64,000 nt of DNA from Candidatus Marinacidobacterales bacterium (GTDB taxonomy: Bacteria; Acidobacteriota; Vicinamibacteria; Marinacidobacterales; DATDRI01), in NCBI GenBank assembly GCA_965219415.1, contig CBDCNP010000001.1:1-64000 (forward strand), written 5' to 3'. Below the pieces are notes generated by a model that saw only the letters and a program-made list of their open reading frames with translations, ran no database searches and was not told where the DNA came from. Position 1 is the first letter of the stretch. Each line of letters opens with the position of its first letter. Shown here one piece after another: positions 16,703-64,000 of the stretch. Both the position numbers and the translations under genes were made by a program.

Positions 16703-17016
16703 GGTGCTTCCGCCATCAAGTGTTGCTACGCCGTGTTTGAATGCTAATGTCAGCTGGCCTGCCTGTGTCGGCGAACGCCATCAATAAGGATGTCGGCGTG
16801 CACACGAAGGTGTCCCTGAACGTCAGGCACCGTGTGGTCAGCCCAGCCCGCATCGCCGAAAGAACTGCGTGTGCCTTCTATTTATTCATCCGCCAGCCCA
16901 TGGGTCGGAAGTCAGCCCTGCGGCGCGAAATACCCTGGATTCTGCGCGGATTCCAAGGACGTCTAAGCTGCTGATTTGTGGTCTATTTCAAAAGGGCCGA
17001 GTTTTGGCACAGGACG
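16703..17016. mobile_element. IS1 right-end fragment (16703-16869) followed by the 147-bp D-A hybrid MITE (16870-17016)
   Basis: D-A unit recurs at 21770-21916 and 36338-36485, partly at 31575-31704. Confidence 0.85.
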
Positions 17017-17204
17017 GGGTCTATAAGCAAAATGTGGGAAGCGGAGCGACTGGCTTTCGAAGCGCTGCTTGACGACCCGGACTGGCGCATTGGACGTGTC
17101 GCTAAGAGCGGGGTTGAGTACGCGGCCGAACGTGAGCGGCAGGCTGCGAGAATCGAGCGCAGAGGTGCACGGCTTGGGATGAAGAGCTGGCTTTAATGAA
17201 AACA

Positions 17205-18589
17205 GGGTCTACGCGGATTCGTGTGGGTTGAAAACTGCATTTCTGGGTAATGGCGGAAGGAAAGCCGCCACGATCTTCAGCTTGAGATATTCCTCGTCGC
17301 GATAGCCGTAGGCGCGTCGTTGCAGAACACGGATTTTGTTGTTGACCCCTTCAACTAGGCCGAGACTGACTTTGTTCTCCGGATGACAGTAGGAGGCGAT
17401 ACCATCCCAATGGGACTCAATCATACCGGCGAACTTCTGGTACGGATGCAGGCGTTGCCATTTGAGGCTGTCTTTCCAACGGGTGAAAAAGGCGCGAGCG
17501 CCGCGTTCGGTGCGGTAATCCCAGAGTTGCCCGAAGGCCTCCTTCAAAATATAGGCGGTGTTCAGGCGCCGGTTGGCCTGGAGCAACTTTTTGAGTGCGC
17601 GGCGACCGTCTAGGCTCAGGTTCTCCCGCCGGGAAAGCAAAGTGTAACGCTGCCCCTTGATGTACGACCGGTCCTTGCCGCTGAGGCGTTTGTACTCACC
17701 GCGCCGGACCTCATCGAGGGCCTTTGACAGATGACGCATGATATGAAACTTGTCGAAGATGATCCGCGCATTAGGCGCGTTGTGAATCACCGAGTTCCGG
17801 AAGGGCTTCCACATATCCATGGCGGCCAGCTTGATACGGGCGCTTTTCTTTCCGCCCAGCGCCTTGAAGAACAAATCGATGTCGGTTTCTTTACGACCCT
17901 CACCGCCCACCCAGATGGGACGCGCCCGCTCCAGGTCGCTGACAATGACGCGATAGTTATGTCCCTTGCGGATGGAGATCTCATCGACACCGATGGCCCG
18001 AGGCGCCGGTAGCCCCGCCCGGTCGACCTGCTCTTGCATGTAGAGCGTATCCAGAGCCTTCACCGTACCGTGGTGCAGACGTTCCATCTCGGCCACCGCC
18101 TTGTTCGGCATATCCCGGCACAGCTTGCCCACATGCGTCGCAAAACGCTGGGTGTAGCGCGAGTTGTTCGCCAGCCAGTCTAGGTTGTTCTACATGCACA
18201 CCGCCGCACCCAGAACAGTTGACGCGCCGACGCTCGTATTCCAGATAGATCCGCCAGCCTGCCAACGACAGGTCGCGGACCCGGCACACTTGCTTGTCAT
18301 AGCGCCCCCGGCACCGTTGCCCACAGTAAGAGCACACAGCTGTTTTTTTCGCCTCTTGAGCTGGATGACGCGGGCGTATCGGTCACCGAATAGACCCTTC
18401 AATCCGGCACCAACCACGAAACCTGGCAGCGCAAACAGCGAGCGGATCGACTGGGAATTTTTCACTCGGTTAGCCTATCCTAAAAATGGACCACTTTTCA
18501 GCACCTGATGAAGTACTCGATACCTTTTCCACACAATGAGTTACACTGTTTTTCCGTCAGAACTTACCCACACGAATCCGCGTAAACCC
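17205..18589 (-). mobile_element. ISL3-family insertion sequence; transposase split over three frames
   Basis: 23-bp IRs GGGT(C/T)TACGCGGATTCGTGTGGG; 8-bp TSD TGAAAACA; IGVDE, AMDMW, DKFH, EGVNNKI motifs; zinc-finger N-terminus. Confidence 0.95.
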
Positions 18590-19089
18590 TGAAAACACAT
18601 GGGTCGATTTGGAGGTTTTGGGCATGGTTCGGATGGTAGCTTCTGGTCTGGAAATTGCGGGACAGTGGCCGGCTGGCGCGGTCTTCAAACCACTGTCCAG
18701 GAAATCGGGACCGGTACAAATGAAGGCTCGGTGAAAACGAAACTGGACGCATGGAACGTGTTTGGAGCGGTGATCCCCGAAGCAGCCTGTCCCCAAGCGA
18801 GGGCTTCATCTTCCCTTTGGTCCTTGGATGCGAATGAAGTGACGGACGAAGGAGGCGAGGACGCTATGATCAGCAAAACGGAAGCGAAGGAACTGAACAA
18901 CGGACCTCTTCGAGAGGGAGGCTTTCGTCATTGGTGGCCTGATCGCAGTCCACGAGATGGAGGACGACCTCGGCTGGCGGCGGTTTATTGCGGCCAAATC
19001 CTCACCCGCTGGCAAGCCTATGCGAAAGATGACGCCGAGCGGCTGGTGGATGGTCGGCCGGTGGACGCCCGGTGTCCAGACGCGGCGGA

Positions 19090-26240: not shown

Positions 26241-27441
26241 GGTGCTTCCGCCATCAAGTGTTGCTACGCGGCTGCGGGCAGTGGTACAGGCGCGGAAGAG
26301 ACCGGGTTGCGCGCCCCAGTGAGCAGGAAAACCTCGATCCGCGACCACAAAGGAATCGTCGTCGCCAAGAAGATGTCTCGAAAGGTGAGCCGTCGCGTCG
26401 TCAGACCAGCCTGCATAGCCGGAGTTCGGATCTCACGTCCGAACTTCAGAGCTCCGTGCGGTCGGACGAAGTTGTAATAGCAACGGAGCAATTCCATGTG
26501 CTCATCGAGCTTCTCCGTCGAGCGAGCGTGGGAAAGCGTTCGTCTCGAAAGGTATGCCGAGCTTTGCCGGATGGTCAGATTCAACCGCTCGATGAACGAC
26601 GTGTTCAATGTCGAGGAGTCCTCGGAGTTATTGAGCGCGTCTTCGAATCGCCACGCGGCTCCGTGCAGCGCTCTGCGTTCGACCTTGATGATGCGATCGT
26701 TCCTGCGCGTTTTTAGGACCTGGCCGTAGAGACACGCTGGACCGAAGAAGCGACGGATGACCTTCTGGTAGAATTCGAATCCATCCGTGACGATCAGGGG
26801 AAGACGTCCGAAATTCATCCGCTTCGAAAGGTCGCGAAACAGAGCGTGAGTGTTCCGGTAGCTTCGCCTTCCCGTCACCGTCGATGGCCAGAGCCGAGAC
26901 CAGACCTCGATCGTAACGAAGACCCAACTCGGCGTCTTTTTGTTGCCCGCGAACGTGCGAATCTCGTCGGCTTGAAGCTCTTCGGCAGCGAAGCCGGCGA
27001 TCCTTGTGTGGTTGAATCGACGACACACTTGGGCTGCCTTCTCAAGCCAGCGGGCGACGGTATTCCAGGCAATCCCTTCGATCCGGGAAATCGCGGAAAT
27101 GCTGACACCCTCGACTCTGAGAGCGATGACCCCATCGAAAGTAGCTCTTCGATGTTGGAGACGGTAGTAGGGCGTGCCTTTCGTCGAGGAGAACGTCTTT
27201 CCGCACTCGCCGCACCGGTATCGACGGCGTTTCCCGGACCTCGTTCTGTTAGAATCCGTGGCGAACGATGTTTCCGGAACTGACTTTGCCCCGCAACGGA
27301 CATGCGAGATTGAGACATCTGCGATTCTTCACTTCGGCTCGGCCCTGACGATGAGAGAACTGTGTCTTCGGAATTTTGGTTCTAACTCTAGCACGCAGAC
27401 GGGTTAGGGGTTGGCCGCCAACACTTAATTGCGGAAGCACC
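26241..27441 (-). mobile_element. IS1-family insertion sequence, 1201 bp; +1 frameshift near 27250
   Basis: GGTGCTTCCGC IRs; zinc ribbon + HTH + LQADE, IVTDG, IERLN DDE motifs; no TSD. Confidence 0.9.
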
Positions 27442-59303: not shown

Positions 59304-60905
59304 TTACCCGTGTTTCACTCCTTCAGGGGCGACGCCACTTGGCGATCCTGCTTCTGAACGCCTATGCACCTCCCCCGCACATCGGTATCCGGACTCGAGC
59401 GCACCGTTCATGTACGCATGCCAGAACGAGGTATGCTCTCCCGCGAAGTGCACTCGCCCCTCCGGTTTGACGAGCGCTGGCAGATGCGTCGTCATTTGCC
59501 CGGTCTCATACACCACGTAAGCCCCACGGTTCCATTCCTCGGCGTCCCAAAACCAAATCTGATGATCTTCGGCGTGCTTACCGACGTCGGGACTAACCCG
59601 GGCGATCTGATCCAGAATCTCTTCCCTTTGTCGCTGACCGCTCAGTGCGAAAATCTCCTGGGCGGCCGGGGCGGTCGTGTAGTTTCGCAGGATCCCTCGC
59701 GGTCCCGGCTGGTTGCCGGTCTCGTGGGACAAGATCCCGATGGGAAGATCGCCCCATAGGCTTCCATTCCATCCTTGCTCCTCCCAGTACCGTTGACGGA
59801 ATTGAAGGAAGAGCTTATGCAGTGAAACGTACGGGACTTCCTTGATGGCTCGGGTCTTCTTCTCGCTGAATGGCGGGAGGACCTCTACCAGCCGTAACGT
59901 GGGCAGCGGTAAGGTGCAGACCACGTAGTCGACGGAAATGCTTTCCAGAGCGTCCCCCTGCCGGACCACCACCCTTGCCTCATTGGCATCCTGTTCGATC
60001 CGAACGACCGGAGTGCCATAACGGATCTTGTCCGAGAGTCGCTTGGCGAACGCAAGGGGGAATTGATCGTTGCCGCCAATGATCCGAAACTTATGACCGG
60101 TGCGAAGCCCGATGGCGTCATCCATCAATAAGTAGAGAGGGGAGATCCGCTCCAGGGCGTTGCCGTTGTAGTAGTTGTCCAGTGACCGACCGAAGATCTC
60201 CAACAGCCCCTTCGAGGCACCTCGCTGCTTGAGGAACTCGCCGACCGGGACCTGGTCGAGATCTTTGAGATCTGCCAAATTGGGAATATCCGCGTTGACC
60301 AGCCGCGCGTAACTTTTGGAACCGAAGTGGTAGGCGTTGAAGTCCACGTAGGCGAGGGTCCCTATGGGGGGTGCACTTCTGAGAAAAGAGATGTCTTTTG
60401 AGGTCAAGTCGTACGGCAGAATGCTCGGATCGGCTTCGACTTCGGATTGCCGATACGCACGTCCTTTAAGATAGAGTATTCCAGTCGTTTTCTTGACCTG
60501 GGCGCGCGGGAACATCGGCTGCAGGGGCATGTCAAACTCCATGCAATAGTGCACGGAGTACCGGTGCATGGTGTAGAAGTTGGCCGCTCCCGCCTCCACA
60601 TAGAGCCCGTCACTGAATCCCTCTCGTAGGGTACAGACCCGGCCGCCGGGCCGGTTTCGCGCTTCGAGCACCACGACGTCGTGACCGAGCCGGGCGAGCT
60701 CGTAGGCGGCGCACAATCCCGCCAACCCGGCACCCAAGACCGCCACCTTTCTGGGCAGCTTTGCTCGCCGCGGGAGAATCGGAGGAATGTCCTCGAACAG
60801 GTGCTGGAGCGCCATCAGCCTGGGTGCATACCAGTGGGAGCTTGCTCCGGCGATGGAGCTGGTAATTAAGGCGGTAAGAAAACGCCGCCGACTCCAATGA
60901 GGCAT
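59304..60905 (-). CDS. Flavin monoamine oxidase family protein with Tat-like signal
   Basis: SRRRFL; VAVLGAGLAGL, EAR.RPGGR, HFAGEHT..MNGALESG. Confidence 0.92.
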   Translation of the reverse strand: MPHWSRRRFLTALITSSIAGASSHWYAPRLMALQHLFEDIPPILPRRAKLPRKVAVLGAGLAGLCAAYELARLGHDVVVLEARNRPGGRVCTLREGFSDGLYVEAGAANFYTMHRYSVHYCMEFDMPLQPMFPRAQVKKTTGILYLKGRAYRQSEVEADPSILPYDLTSKDISFLRSAPPIGTLAYVDFNAYHFGSKSYARLVNADIPNLADLKDLDQVPVGEFLKQRGASKGLLEIFGRSLDNYYNGNALERISPLYLLMDDAIGLRTGHKFRIIGGNDQFPLAFAKRLSDKIRYGTPVVRIEQDANEARVVVRQGDALESISVDYVVCTLPLPTLRLVEVLPPFSEKKTRAIKEVPYVSLHKLFLQFRQRYWEEQGWNGSLWGDLPIGILSHETGNQPGPRGILRNYTTAPAAQEIFALSGQRQREEILDQIARVSPDVGKHAEDHQIWFWDAEEWNRGAYVVYETGQMTTHLPALVKPEGRVHFAGEHTSFWHAYMNGALESGYRCAGEVHRRSEAGSPSGVAPEGVKHG

Positions 60906-61022
60906 GAGTGGCCTCCTTGCTACACGGTACAACCGTTCCCTGTCAAGCTGAATGTCGTCGACCCGCGTCAGATGGCATCTTGGTCGGCCTGAGTATCCGG
61001 CCGCGGTTATTGAAGTCGGAAC

Positions 61023-61188
61023 GGTGCTTCCGCCATTAAGTGTTGGTGAGATGACGCTAAGACTTTACGGTGCATTAAATTACAGCCAAAATGGCGCTCA
61101 CGACCTTCGCCGCGCGCTAAATGGAGCTTAAGCGCCTCTTTTGCAAAGGGATACGTACACATCACCAACAGCAAACAGCGCAAGCACC
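61023..61188 (+). mobile_element. 166-bp IS1-derived MITE
   Basis: Full-length copy with both IRs. Confidence 0.9.
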
Positions 61189-61568
61189 AAGACCGGAACA
61201 TCGACCAGCCGGAAGAAAGTGCGGTTTCCGAACCCGTCCTGACGGACGATGGCAAGCCCCTCCGGCATTGGCTCCTCGTCTCCGCCGGAGTCGTCGGGAT
61301 TCCTTTTGTCGTGGGGATCGTCCTGTACTTTCTCCTTACTGGCGGAGGTATCGACGAGACCGGGGAGGCTCCCGACGCACTTGAGGCGCCGACAAGCACC
61401 GTGGCAGAGTCGGCTGCGCCACCGTCCGGCGAGACGGAAGCTCTACCCGAGGCGGCGCCGATCGTTCTGCCACCGCTGTCCACCAGCGATGACTTCGTCC
61501 GCGCGATAGTCGAGAAGCTCTCCGCACATCCCGTGCTGGCGTCGTTTGTGGTGACCGAGCAGCTCATT
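61189..61568 (+). pseudogene. DUF3014-like membrane-anchored protein fragment
   Basis: TM segment, Pro/Glu linker, LPPLSTSDDFVR. Confidence 0.6.
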
Positions 61569-61794
61569 GGTGCTTCCGCAATCAAGTGTTGGCAGCAGAT
61601 GCCTAACCCGTTCGTGTACTAGAGTTTGAGCCTGATTTCGAGAGACTCAGTTCTTTCGGCGATGCCGGCTGGGCTGACGATGCGGTGCCTTACATTCAAG
61701 GACATCTTCGTGTGCACGCCGACATCCTTGTTAATGGCGTTCGAAGACACAGGCAGGACAACTAACACTGGTATTCAAACGCGGCTTAGCAACA

Positions 61795-63239
61795 TATCTG
61801 GACTCCTCTAGTCAAGCCCCTTTCTTTCTAGTCACGCCCCTTTCTTAATAAATCTTCCATCGAAGCTGCGCATCCATCGCGTCGTGACGAGTGGGTCAGA
61901 CTGCAAACGTATCTTCGGCCTCAGTGAGGAGCGTCTTGGGTGCTCCGGGCCATGATGGAAAATCCGCGCGCGAGGAGCCAATCACTTTGAACGACCTCTT
62001 AGGGCCAGTGTTGCTATTGGCTTGACCCCGCGCCGGTCCGACCGGTACGCCATCAGTTGGATGGGTATCGTCGCAGCCTCTTTTGGAAGGGAAAAAGGAA
62101 AACACGAAAGTGGAGCCTCTAAATCTAAGCGGCCACCGGCGACTGGAATTCACTCTCGCGGGTGGAGACGGCCCAGACGATCCGGGCGAGTTTGTTGGCG
62201 ACAGCAATCACGGCCTTGTTGTGTCCCCGCGAGCGGTGGACCTTCCGAGCCCAGGCGCGGAGCTTGTCGGGCGGGCTCTTGCTGACGTTCGCCGCGCGGA
62301 GCACGGCGCGCCCGCCCTGGGTGAGGAGCATACGGAGGTAGGAGTCGCCACGCTTGGTGATGCGTCCGAGGCGGCGAATGTCGCCACTGGAGTTTTCCTT
62401 GGGAACTAGGCCGAGGTAGCTCGAGAAGCGGCGCCCCGATGGGAAGCGGCGAAGATCGCCGACGAAGCCCACGATGGCGGTCGCGGCCAGAAGTCCGATG
62501 CCGGGAATGGCGAGAAGTCGTTGGACTTCAGGAAGCTGCTTGGTGAGCGCCTTGAGCTCGTGCTCGATGCTAGCGCACTTGTCCTTGAGTTCTCGAATCT
62601 CGGAGCAGGCATCACGGAGATGCGAACGGAGCACGTCGGGCAAATCAGAATCAGCGTCTTCGACGAGTTCGAAGAGGGCGGGCACGACGAAGTGAGCGCC
62701 CTTTGGGATGATGAATCCGAGTTCGCGCAGGAGCCCGCGTACGGCATTGATGCGTGCGGTCCGTGTGGAGAGCCATCCTGAGCGCAGGCGATGGAGCGCA
62801 GCGAGGGTGTGCTGGTGCACGGACTTGATGGGTACGGGAAGAAGCTCCTCGTTCCTGTAGGCCTCGAGCAACGCCTTCGTGTCGGCGCGGTCGTTCTTGC
62901 TCCCGCGTCGATACGGCCTCACGAGGTGAGGTGGGAGCAGGACGACGTCGTGTCCCAACCTTCGGAACGTCCTTGCCCAGAAGTGAGCCGAGCCGCAGGC
63001 TTCGAGAAGCACGGTGGCAGCGCTCTGTTTGGCAAAGAACGACACCAATTTGGGTCGACTCACACGGAGTTGCTTGGACACCTTCCCCGCTTCTCCCGAG
63101 ATGGCAATCTCGAAGACGTTCTTTGCAAGATCCACAGCGATTGTCGTATCTTTCATTTGGACTCCTCCTTTTCGATGCGTATTCGACTGACTTTGGCACA
63201 TCGATGCCGTCTATGTCAGTGGAGGAGTCCATTCCATCA
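61795..63239 (-). mobile_element. IS110-family (IS1111 group) element; recombinase at 62125-63156
   Basis: AVDLAK, LEAC, KNDRAD, GLVPKENSSG; sub-terminal IRs TGGACTCCTC; long 3' non-coding region; CA/TG core at both junctions. Confidence 0.95.
61895..62060 (-). ncRNA. Bridge/seek RNA of the IS1111 element
   Basis: Position downstream of the recombinase; contains segments matching the target and donor junction sequences. Confidence 0.8.
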
Positions 63240-63257
63240 CTTGATAGCGGAAGCACC

Positions 63258-63451
63258 AGACAGCGCGAAATGGAGTCGTGCATCGAACTTGGAACTGTTT
63301 CAATCCACTCCCCCCGCCGAAGCGAGGGGAGACGGCAAGTATTCCGACTCAATGTCACCGGGGGCGGAGAGTTTCAATCCACTCCCCCCGCCGAAGCGAG
63401 GGGAGACAACAAGTCATTCCGTTCCCGTCAACGCCACGTGAGTTTCAATCC
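63258..63451 (-). CRISPR. Orphan CRISPR fragment: two full 37-bp repeats (63297, 63371), two partial repeats, three spacers (35, 37 and 34 bp)
   Basis: GTTTCAATCCACTCCCCCCGCCGAAGCGAGGGGAGAC; reverse complement ends ATTGAAAC; not the I-E repeat. Confidence 0.9.
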
Positions 63452-63768
63452 CGTCCTGTGCCAAAACTCGGCCCTCTTGAAATAGCCGATAAATCAGCAG
63501 CTTAGCGTCTGTGTTTTGCGACGGTGCCAAGGGCTGTGGGCTTTACAATCGTCTGGCCCGAGGGTGTTATCTTCGGATCCATCATGACGTACCATGTGCA
63601 AATCCTACTGTTGGTCAGGCAGCCGTTGTTCGATCGGGCAGCCCTGCTGCTCACACAGACCTCATGGGTGCTTCCGCCATTAAGTGTTGGTAAAATGACG
63701 CTAAGACTTTACGGTGCATTAAATTACAGCCATGGTCTTTCAAAAGGGCCGAGTTTTGGCACAGGACG
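63452..63768 (+). mobile_element. Second copy of the composite element at 1905-2222
   Basis: Near-identical sequence, opposite orientation. Confidence 0.9.
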
Positions 63769-64000
63769 GGGTCCCGGTCGTGGATGAGGTATCGCTTGCC
63801 AAGGAGGAAACCATCCCACAGGTCAGTGAGGTTTCTTGCCACCTGCTTCATCCACTCCCCGTTGGGGTCCGACGTTATCCCACCGATGCACACGCAGCGG
63901 GTGGCGATATCGATGACAAACAGGACATGGTAGCGGACGAGCCCGAACGGGTTCACAACCTCGACGGTGAACAGGTCTGTCGCAGCGGATAGCGCCCGTC
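63769..64000 (-). pseudogene. A-family transposase internal fragment
   Basis: Matches 15060-15283. Confidence 0.9.

What the first reader, a model, noticed from the sequence alone, without database searches (positions are those of the whole stretch)
61569..63257. RNA-guided IS1111 programmed against the terminal repeat of the resident IS1: guides readable in the sequence
Seen: the element sits inside an IS1 right IR (minus-strand target ATCAAG-TG-TTGCTA; TG core at both junctions; predicted circle joint AGATA-TG-ATGGAA). Its 3' non-coding region contains AGTGTTGCTA (62007-62016, 10/10 to the target), CACTT (61983-61987, other target half), ATGATGGAA (61952-61960, 9/9 to the donor joint) and CGTATCT (61908-61914, near-match to donor CATATCT). 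Empty targets remain at 16718, 26256, 30113 and 43266; MITE and left ends read GTTGG and mismatch. Known: IS110/IS1111 use bridge/seek RNAs, and IS4321/IS5075 target Tn21 IRs. Inference: a hyperparasite that disables IS1 ends, and a natural recombinase with a decoded 11-bp specificity.
Basis: partly seen in the sequence, partly recalled or inferred. Interest (0 to 1): 0.85.

Follow-up and report, generated by a model that had tools for sequence, protein, structure and literature searches.

The report
RNA-guided IS1111 element targeting IS1 ends
This is an insertion sequence of the known RNA-guided IS110/IS1111 kind that has landed about thirty times in one end of another mobile element, with its guide sequences readable in its own DNA; it is a clear new example, not a new mechanism.

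Summary
Window 61795-63239 is a 1445-bp IS1111-group insertion sequence on the minus strand. It has a DEDD transposase, 9-10-bp subterminal inverted repeats and a 330-bp non-coding region 3' of the gene. It sits at ATCAAG-TG-TTGCTA in the right terminal repeat of a 246-bp MITE derived from an IS1-family element.

All four guide strings lie at the stated coordinates. Two flank a conserved hairpin inside an internal loop with a conserved closing helix. The other two flank a second conserved hairpin.

The genome holds about 30 near-identical copies:
- 28 of 28 readable left flanks are the same repeat.
- 26 of 28 right flanks read TGTTGCTA.
- Ends reading TTGCTA are occupied 28 of 104 times; ends reading TTGGnn, 1 of 63.

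Two relatives with different guides sit in different sites that match their own guides, which amounts to a natural guide swap. Relatives carrying the same guides also sit in non-IS sites reading CAAG-TG-TTGCT. The specificity is therefore a short sequence, not IS1 as such.

This is the bridge/seekRNA mechanism published in 2024, and targeting of another transposon's repeats is known from IS4321/IS5075. I rate it a new member of a known kind. Neither the RNA nor any disabling of IS1 was shown here.

The parts
61795..63239 (-). IS1111-group insertion sequence, 1445 bp including one copy of the TG core (equally 61793-63237)
   Evidence: Junctions read. Empty sites. 30 full-length copies with 0-1 differences in the own genome.
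62125..63156 (-). Transposase gene, 343 aa from the ATG at 63156 (an upstream in-frame ATG at 63201 would give 358 aa). Contains GLVPKENSSG, which fits the GL-P----SG motif.
   Evidence: Pfam PF01548 (7.8e-12) and PF02371 (3.4e-24). NCBIfam NF033542 'IS110 family RNA-guided transposase' at 302.9 bits against a cut-off of 140. Motif as described in PMC11187229 section 6.
63222..63231 (-). Left subterminal inverted repeat (TGGACTCCTC on the element strand), 6 nt inside the left end ATGGAA
   Evidence: Read.
61799..61808 (-). Right subterminal inverted repeat (GAGGAGTCCA on the element strand), followed by the terminal GATA
   Evidence: Read.
61899..62036 (-). Predicted bridge/seekRNA core, 138 nt, within the 330-bp 3' non-coding region 61795-62124
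   Evidence: Fold. Covariance model R1 finds it in 8 of 55 genomes of the order. Pair counts.
62007..62016 (-). Guide 1 (RNA UAGCAACACU). It is complementary to the element-sense strand of the target, AG-TG-TTGCTA, and lies on the 5' strand of the first internal loop. U at 62016 is in the closing helix.
   Evidence: Cognate against non-cognate matching (10 against 4 and 4).
61983..61987 (-). Guide 2 (RNA AAGUG). It has the same sense as the target left half plus core, so it would pair with the other strand. It lies on the 3' strand of the first loop, directly before the closing helix.
   Evidence: L047 has CAGCG here beside a left flank CAG-TG. Weak on its own.
61976..62022 (-). First (target-binding) internal loop with closing helix AGCCAAU/AUUGGCU (62016-62022 with 61976-61982) and inner hairpin GGCC..GGUC (61993-62006)
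   Evidence: Helices 2 and 3 are 91.7% and 100% paired, and helix 3 has 2 pairs changed on both sides.
61952..61960 (-). Guide 3 (RNA UUCCAUCAU), complementary to the predicted circle joint A-TG-ATGGAA (left end)
   Evidence: In G040 the guide reads UCCCAU and the left end ATGGGA, a compensatory change.
61908..61914 (-). Guide 4 (RNA AGAUACG), same sense as the right end AGATA-TG but with C for T at the first core position
   Evidence: The 93% relatives have AGAUAUG with right end AGATA-TG, and G040 has AGAUACG with AGATA-CG.
61917..61951 (-). Conserved stem-loop between guides 3 and 4 (GGCC-C-GGAGC...GCUCC...GGCC)
   Evidence: Helices 4 and 5 are 100% and 96.2% paired but nearly invariant.
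61569..61794 (.). Body of the interrupted 246-bp MITE (left repeat GGTGCTTCCGCAATCAAGTGTTGG...) up to and including the core CA at 61793-61794
   Evidence: 21 near-full-length copies at 82-87% identity to the window copy, 10 occupied and 11 empty.
63240..63257 (.). Outer 18 bp of the MITE's right terminal repeat (GGTGCTTCCGCTATCAAG on the minus strand), cut off from the rest by the insertion

Best explanation
An active IS1111-group (IS110 family) insertion sequence whose target is chosen by an RNA encoded in its own 3' non-coding region.

Proposed mechanism. Transcription runs in the transposase direction. This would probably be driven from a promoter formed when the ends join in a circle, which is an inference. 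It yields an RNA with two guide-bearing modules.
- In the first module, guide 1 on the 5' strand of an internal loop (AGCAACACU) pairs with one strand of AG-TG-TTGCT. Guide 2 on the 3' strand (AAGUG) pairs with the other strand of AAG-TG.
- In the second module, UUCCAUCAU and AGAUACG pair in the same way with the abutted ends AGATA-TG-ATGGAA of the excised circle.
- The DEDD/serine recombinase then exchanges strands at the TG core. The element is inserted in one orientation without target duplication.

Biological outcome. The programmed sequence occurs almost only in the right terminal repeat of the genome's abundant IS1-family element and its MITEs. The element has therefore accumulated there, and each insertion splits that repeat after base 20.

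Shown here: the anatomy, the site specificity, the guide-site complementarity and its co-variation among relatives.
Inferred: that the RNA exists and that the recombination chemistry is as described, both by homology to ISEc11, ISPa11, ISKpn4 and IS621.
For: Protein family: PF01548 and PF02371; NF033542 at 302.9 bits; the closest named relative is an ISPa25-family transposase at 45.9% identity.

IS1111 anatomy: subterminal repeats, a short left end and a 330-bp 3' non-coding region.

Copies: 30 full-length copies with 0-1 differences. Of the 28 loci whose ends could be read, 28 have the left flank ..ATCAAG-TG and 26 the right flank TG-TTGCTA.

Recent, independent insertions: the host MITE copies are only 82-87% identical to the window copy, while the inserted element is about 100% identical between copies.

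Census of ends: ATCAAG/TTGCTA 28 occupied of 104; ATCAAG/TTGGnn 1 of 63; one-mismatch-left/TTGGnn 0 of 243; Fisher p = 1e-5.

Guides against chance: 9 of 2000 and 45 of 2000 shuffles, 0 of 2000 jointly.

Structure: the target loop appears in the minimum-energy fold. 94.5% of cells pair, against 37-51% when partners are slid; 4 pairs change on both sides; G-U pairs fit only the minus-strand transcript.

Guide order: the top-strand complement comes 5' of the bottom-strand match, as PMC11187229 sections 4 and 9 state for IS1111 seekRNAs.

Natural guide swaps:
- L047 has guide 1 AUAACAAUCG and right flank TG-ATTGTTATC. The longest exact run in the cognate pairing is 10, against 4 and 4 for non-cognate pairings.
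- G040 has two identical copies with guide 1 CAACUGCG and right flank CG-CAGTTG, guide 2 CGUCCGGACG and left flank CGTCCAGATG (8 of 10), guide 3 UCCCAU and left end ATGGGA.

Target logo from relatives with the same guides: of 14 intact right flanks read from the listing, 13 begin TTGCT. Position +6 varies, and that position faces a base in the closing helix. Some of these sites are not in any IS (L049, L050).
Against: - No RNA was observed. Runs from RNA libraries are held only as contigs and show pieces of the transposase gene at low depth. Rfam has no family that matches.
- The closing helix of the donor loop is not established. The minimum-energy fold of the 138-nt core pairs AUUUUC (start of guide 3) with GAAGAU (start of guide 4). 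That helix is not conserved, though: its position 122 is A, U or C in relatives without a compensating change.
- Guide 2 is only 5 nt and does not discriminate by exact-run length.
- Guide 4 has a C-A mismatch at the first core position in this lineage.
- In the 93% relatives the changes in the donor guide and the left end are compatible with wobble pairs, not compensatory.
- The register of the core in guide 1 differs by one base between this element and L047.
- Four more distant matches to the model (L138, L140, L141, L142) have flanks that do not match their loop sequences. They look truncated or decayed, so they neither support nor test the model.
- Covariation support comes from few distinct sequences (12), aligned to the model's own structure.
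Confidence: 0.85

Rival explanations
1. The recombinase protein alone recognises the target, for example the sequence or shape of the IS1-family repeat, and the matches in the non-coding region are coincidental or have another role.
For: No RNA was seen. Guides 2 and 4 are short or imperfect.
Against: A joint match to target and donor occurred in 0 of 2000 shuffles. Relatives whose loop sequences differ sit in different sites that match their own loops. Relatives with the same loop sit in non-IS sites sharing only CAAG-TG-TTGCT. Members of the family were shown by experiment to need the RNA (PMC11187229 abstract and sections 4 and 9).
Confidence: 0.05
2. There was a single ancestral insertion into one IS1-family end, and it was then spread by transposition, gene conversion or duplication of the host element. 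On this reading there was no repeated site-specific insertion.
For: A few occupied sites share outer flanks (TTGAAATAGACC twice, ACCGATGCAGAG twice), so not all copies need be independent events.
Against: The occupied hosts belong to at least two sequence types: the IS1-type end ..TTGCTACGCGGCTGCGGGCAG and the MITE-type end ..TTGCTACGCCGTGTTTGAATGC. Host MITE copies are 82-87% identical to the window copy while the inserted elements differ by 0-1 bases. Most outer flanks differ. An element with a split terminal repeat is unlikely to transpose (inference).
Confidence: 0.05
3. The region 61569-63257 is one composite element whose own terminal inverted repeats are the GGTGCTTCCGC..ATCAAGTG arms and which carries an IS110-type gene as cargo.
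For: The two 20-bp arms at 61569-61588 and 63238-63257 are inverted repeats with one mismatch.
Against: Empty 246-bp MITEs exist without the 1445-bp insert (11 of 21). The same insert sits in full-length IS1-family ends and, in relatives, outside any such element.
Confidence: 0.02

Closest known systems
IS1111-family elements with a seekRNA (ISEc11, ISPa11, ISKpn4, ISPst6, ISPa25; Siddiquee et al. 2024, PMC11187229)
   Same: DEDD transposase of 330-350 aa with the GL-P----SG motif, subterminal inverted repeats, a long non-coding region downstream of the gene, one orientation at one specific site, and the top-strand complement 5' of the bottom-strand match in the RNA. The closest named protein is an ISPa25-family transposase at 45.9% identity.
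   Different: Host phylum: Acidobacteriota, named 'Candidatus Marinacidobacterales' in the record titles of relatives. The target is different. The subterminal repeats are shorter (9-10 bp against the usual 11-13) and the terminal extensions are 6 and 4 bp outside the core, not 7 and 3. Nothing was tested by experiment.
IS4321/IS5075, which target the 38-bp terminal repeats of Tn21-family transposons (Partridge and Hall 2003; seen only as a title in reference lists)
   Same: An IS1111-family element that inserts at one position and in one orientation inside the terminal inverted repeat of another transposable element.
   Different: The victim here is an IS1-family insertion sequence and its MITEs, not a Tn3-family transposon. 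Here occupancy can be counted across more than 100 target ends in one genome.
IS621 bridge RNA (Durrant et al. 2024, PMC11208160; structures 8wt6 and related)
   Same: Two guide-bearing modules, one for the target and one for the donor. Each reads both strands around a dinucleotide core that is included in all four pairings.
   Different: The RNA lies 3' of the gene, not in the left end. The order of top-strand and bottom-strand guides is reversed. The core is TG, not CT. The protein matches IS621 only over the C-terminal domain (E = 9e-8).
ISPpu9 of Pseudomonas putida (PMC12288879, abstract only)
   Same: An IS110-family element with a small-RNA gene downstream of the transposase, and extra copies of the RNA module elsewhere. 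Relatives here carry tandem extra copies of the 3' module (L031).
   Different: ISPpu9 targets REP sequences. The modular copies here are tandem and adjacent, and they join at internal pseudo-targets.

Membership tests
IS110 family, IS1111 group | N-terminal DEDD (RuvC-like) transposase domain | tested here: met
   PF01548, E = 7.8e-12, residues 22-161 of the 358-aa ORF. NF033542 at 302.9 bits against a cut-off of 140.
IS110 family, IS1111 group | C-terminal PF02371 domain with the GL-P----S(T)G motif | tested here: met
   PF02371, E = 3.4e-24. GLVPKENSSG is in the translation. It aligns to GLTPRRYESG of ISCro4. The motif is as given in PMC11187229 section 6.
IS110 family, IS1111 group | Subterminal inverted repeats with short asymmetric terminal extensions | tested here: met
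   TGGACTCCTC and GAGGAGTCCA (10 bp), 6 nt from the left end and 4 nt from the right end, not counting the core. This is shorter than the usual 11-13 bp quoted in PMC11187229 section 4, but within the 7-17 bp range quoted in PMC11208160.
IS110 family, IS1111 group | Long non-coding region downstream of the transposase gene | tested here: met
   330 bp downstream (61795-62124), against 83 bp upstream of the ATG at 63156.
IS110 family, IS1111 group | One specific target, one orientation, no target duplication beyond the shared core | tested here: met
   28 of 28 left flanks and 26 of 28 right flanks. Empty sites.
IS110 family, IS1111 group | Circular intermediate with abutted ends | not testable with these tools
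   It would need reads across an AGATA-TG-ATGGAA joint.
seekRNA / bridge RNA | RNA from the non-coding region carries segments complementary to both strands of the target, overlapping at the core, top-strand complement first (IS1111 order) | tested here: met
   At the DNA level only. UAGCAACACU then AAGUG, on the two strands of one internal loop. The order is as in PMC11187229 section 9.
seekRNA / bridge RNA | Second loop with guides for the donor (abutted ends) | tested here: inconclusive
   UUCCAUCAU (9 of 9) and AGAUACG (6 of 7) flank a conserved hairpin, and they co-vary with the ends in G040. The outer closing helix is not established, and the minimum-energy fold pairs the two guide starts with each other.
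seekRNA / bridge RNA | Guides co-vary with target among relatives | tested here: met
   Three guide classes with three different sites: own, L047 and G040. Four decayed relatives were uninformative.
seekRNA / bridge RNA | The RNA is made, binds the transposase and is required | not testable with these tools
   RNA-library contigs cover only parts of the gene.
IS1 family (the host element) | DDE_Tnp_IS1 transposase | tested here: inconclusive
   The window copy scores below threshold: PF03400 at 22-24 bits against 24.1, and NF033558 at 38 bits against 100. Homologues of about 355 aa mostly carry precomputed PF03400, and 11 of the 120 listed are named 'IS1 family transposase' by JGI.

The most novel reading that the evidence does not exclude
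The element acts as a true hyperparasite of the genome's dominant transposon family. Each insertion splits the right terminal repeat and immobilises that IS1-family or MITE copy. The target loop is re-programmed over evolutionary time to follow whichever repeat is abundant in the host, as the re-targeted relatives L047 and G040 suggest. On this reading, bridge-RNA elements in these Acidobacteriota shape, and perhaps restrain, the expansion of other mobile DNA.
Probability: 0.2. Interest if true: 0.55.

Novelty: new member of a known kind. Interest (0 to 1): 0.33.

Why it matters
It is a clean natural case in which the four guides of an IS1111-type RNA can be read directly. It also offers a large internal control set in one genome: 104 perfect target ends of which 28 are occupied, and 306 near-target ends of which 1 is occupied. 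Naturally re-programmed relatives are available as well. This could serve as a specificity data set and as a source of a bridge recombinase from an unexplored phylum. It does not change what is known about the mechanism. The ecological idea, one mobile element disabling the ends of another, has a precedent in IS4321/IS5075.

Tried and rejected
- Rfam. A scan of 60500-64000 at E up to 1 gave only a chance miRNA match inside the gene. I recognised no bridge or seekRNA family among its output.
- Sigma-70 promoter scan of 61500-63400: 0 sites. The idea of a junction promoter (TTGACT in the right end, TGGAAT in the left end, 18-bp spacer) is my reading of the sequence, untested, and fails that tool's -10 rule.
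- RNA evidence. The look-up of sequencing runs listed three runs on record as RNA and one guessed. All four are held only as contigs. Laid on 61500-63330, they gave short pieces of the transposase gene and of the MITE, and one 152-nt contig over 62070-62221. This says nothing on a small RNA, its ends or its strand.
- Distant matches to the model. L138, L139, L140, L141 and L142: the loop sequences differ, but the left ends are missing or the flanks do not match. I judged them decayed and dropped them from the guide-site comparison. L122 holds only the donor half.
- Empty site for the G040 element. A pattern search found only the two occupied sites, so its exact junction, and whether its core is TG or CG, remains open.
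- Exact-run comparison for guide 2 does not separate cognate from non-cognate pairs.
- The repeat-context flag printed was misaligned and is not used.
- PDB sequence search: only the C-terminal domain matches ISCro4 and IS621. No structure was predicted, since the family is not in doubt.
- Supplementary files of the papers were not opened. The ISfinder-wide target lists of PMC11187229 and PMC11208160 might already include a relative of this element or an IS that targets IS1-family ends.
- Literature. Two searches returned no paper whose title or abstract start describes an IS1111 element that targets IS1-family repeats. That is not proof of absence.
Full report
**What is there**

The minus strand of window 61795-63239 is a 1445-bp insertion sequence. 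Its single long ORF (62125-63156, 343 aa from the ATG at 63156) carries the two Pfam domains of IS110-family transposases: PF01548 at E = 7.8e-12 and PF02371 at E = 3.4e-24. It scores 302.9 bits on NCBIfam NF033542, 'IS110 family RNA-guided transposase', against a cut-off of 140. The translation contains GLVPKENSSG. This fits the GL-P----SG motif that Siddiquee et al. give for IS1111-family enzymes (PMC11187229 section 6).

The ends read ATGGAA-TGGACTCCTC... and ...GAGGAGTCCA-GATA, so there are 10-bp subterminal inverted repeats. The long non-coding region of 330 bp lies downstream of the gene. These are the marks of the IS1111 group.

The closest named relative in the plasmid collection is an ISPa25-family transposase at 45.9% identity. 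Solved structures (ISCro4, IS621) match only over the C-terminal domain.

**Where it sits**

The flanks are the two parts of a terminal inverted repeat. On the element strand they read GGTGCTTCCGCTATCAAG-TG-[element]-TG-TTGCTAAGCC. The host is a 246-bp MITE. The genome holds 21 near-full-length copies at 82-87% identity to the window copy. Eleven are uninterrupted and ten carry the same insert at the same base. That fixes the boundaries and shows that only the TG core is shared between the junctions.

The MITE shares its ends with a 1.1-1.2-kb element, for example 26241-27441. The stop-to-stop frame of that element (354 aa) gives only sub-threshold hits to IS1 models. Its homologues of about 355 aa mostly carry precomputed PF03400, and 11 of the 120 listed are named 'IS1 family transposase' by JGI. 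'Resident IS1' is therefore acceptable as 'IS1-family element', but the window copy interrupts a MITE derivative.

**The guides**

All four strings are at the stated coordinates. Read as a minus-strand RNA, their order is:
1. UAGCAACACU (62016-62007), complementary to AG-TG-TTGCTA;
2. AAGUG (61987-61983), same sense as AAG-TG;
3. UUCCAUCAU (61960-61952), complementary to A-TG-ATGGAA of the abutted ends;
4. AGAUACG (61914-61908), same sense as AGATA-TG with one mismatch.

In 2000 dinucleotide-preserving shuffles of the non-coding region, a target match of 10 or more occurred 9 times, a donor match of 9 or more occurred 45 times, and both together never. The two short guides are not significant alone.

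**Structure**

The minimum-energy folds place guides 1 and 2 on the two strands of one internal loop. The loop is closed by AGCCAAU/AUUGGCU and caps a GGCC..GGUC hairpin. Guides 3 and 4 flank a second conserved hairpin.

I built a covariance model from six variants. It finds the RNA in 8 of the 55 genomes scored in the order, G000 included. On 12 distinct sequences:
- 94.5% of cells form standard pairs, against 37-51% when partners are slid.
- 4 pairs change on both sides.
- Several positions are G-U in some sequences and G-C or A-U in others. This fits a minus-strand transcript and not its complement.

Three caveats apply. The sequences are few. The alignment was fitted to the model's own structure. 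The outer helix that should close the donor loop is not established. In the single-sequence fold, the start of guide 3 pairs with the start of guide 4. That pairing is not kept in relatives, where position 122 is A, U or C without compensation.

The own genome (8.05 Mb, 3 contigs) has 30 full-length copies that differ by 0-1 bases. Exact end motifs located 28 of them. All 28 have ..ATCAAG-TG on the left, and 26 have TG-TTGCTA on the right. One (L012) has TG-TTGGCGGCC, a left-type end. One (L023) abuts a partial copy of the element itself.

A census of all repeat-like ends:

| End type (left/right half) | Empty | Occupied |
|---|---|---|
| ATCAAG/TTGCTA | 76 | 28 |
| ATCAAG/TTGGnn | 62 | 1 |
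| one mismatch on the left/TTGGnn | 243 | 0 |

Fisher's exact test between the first two rows gives p = 1e-5. The ends are not fully independent. All 78 empty ATCAAGTGTTGCTA 14-mers in the genome lie in such repeats. Positions +4 to +6, which pair with guide 1, therefore decide occupancy.

**Natural guide swaps**

Relatives occur in 'Candidatus Marinacidobacterales' MAGs.

- The 98% group has the same guides and the same site.
- The 92-94% group also has the same target guides, but some copies sit outside any IS, for example ttCAAG-TG-TTGCTT (L049) and ATCAAG-TG-TTGCTG (L050). Of the 14 intact right flanks that I read from the listing, 13 begin TTGCT and position +6 varies. That position faces U at 62016, which belongs to the closing helix. 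The effective site is therefore about AAG-TG-TTGCT.
- L047 has guide 1 AUAACAAUCG and right flank TG-ATTGTTATC, and guide 2 CAGCG beside CAG-TG.
- G040 has two identical copies with four informative pairings:
  - guide 1 CAACUGCG beside CG-CAGTTG;
  - guide 2 CGUCCGGACG beside CGTCCAGATG (8 of 10);
  - guide 3 UCCCAU with left end ATGGGA (own: UUCCAU with ATGGAA);
  - guide 4 AGAUACG with right end AGATA-CG.

In a cross-comparison of guide 1, cognate pairs give exact runs of 10, 10 and 7. Non-cognate pairs give 3-5.

**Results that do not fit neatly**

- Four further matches to the model are truncated or have non-matching flanks and were set aside.
- The core register of guide 1 differs by one base between the own element and L047.
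- The own guide 4 has C where the right end has T.
- In the 93% group, the donor-guide and left-end changes are wobble-compatible, not compensatory.

**Comparison with what is known**

The order 'top-strand complement first' is the one Siddiquee et al. report for IS1111 seekRNAs, and the reverse of IS110/IS621. Durrant et al. predicted bridge RNAs in the right end of 93% of IS1111 elements in ISfinder. IS1111-family elements that insert into the terminal repeats of another transposon are known from IS4321/IS5075 in Tn21-family repeats; I saw that paper only as a title in reference lists. This is therefore a new member of a known kind.

**What remains inference**

The following were not shown here:
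- that the RNA is made (searches gave only contigs from RNA libraries);
- the recombination chemistry;
- the junction promoter;
- that the insertion disables the host element.

The last point is plausible, because the repeat is split after base 20. It was not tested.

Noticed in passing
window 63297-63407: Two perfect 37-bp CRISPR-type repeats (GTTTCAATCC...GGGGAGAC) 74 bp apart, with what looks like a truncated third repeat near 63445. They lie directly beside the interrupted MITE, and another MITE end follows at 63667. The array looks eroded by mobile elements.
   Followed up: partly
L031 3623-4844 (four RNA modules); L039, L040, L044, L045, L056; own genome C3:3315127-3315411: Full copies are followed by tandem partial copies of the 3' module (end of the gene, non-coding region and right end). 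The joints are AGATA-TG followed by internal sequence of the element that itself contains G-TG, for example CCG-TG-ATTGCT. This suggests recombination into pseudo-targets inside sister copies. It recalls the modular RNA copies of ISPpu9 (PMC12288879, abstract).
   Followed up: partly
window 61908-61914 and relatives (alignment A1): Guide 4 reads AGAUA-CG in this lineage although the right end reads AGATA-TG. The 93% relatives read AGAUA-UG. L047 and G040 also carry CG at core positions of several guides. It is unexplained whether the C is a tolerated mismatch or has a role.
   Followed up: partly
window 16703-18700: An IS1-type right end at 16703 is followed by other repeats and by an ISL3-family transposase gene (17209-18132, PF01610 at E = 2e-69). 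That ISL3 element is present in about 50 copies in the genome. These are nested insertions.
   Followed up: partly
window 1987, 20682, 21655, 38848, 40973, 61023, 63667: A second, very abundant MITE type shares the first ~25 bp of the repeat but reads ATTAAG-TG-TTGGTGAGATGACGC. The genome has 118 empty ends of this exact 14-mer and none occupied.
   Followed up: partly
L092, L093 (contig ends): The exact 17-nt left end ATGGGATGGACTCCTCC occurs in contigs titled Longimicrobium and Gemmatimonadales, beside a different left flank (CTGCAG-TG). The encoded protein start is only 44% identical. The contigs stop before the non-coding region.
   Followed up: no
L108, L115 (G040): The re-targeted relative sits in what looks like a hairpin-forming repeat (CGCAACTG ... 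CAGTTGCG), in either orientation relative to the surrounding 265-bp repeat. Its left junction reads TG and its right junction CG.
   Followed up: partly
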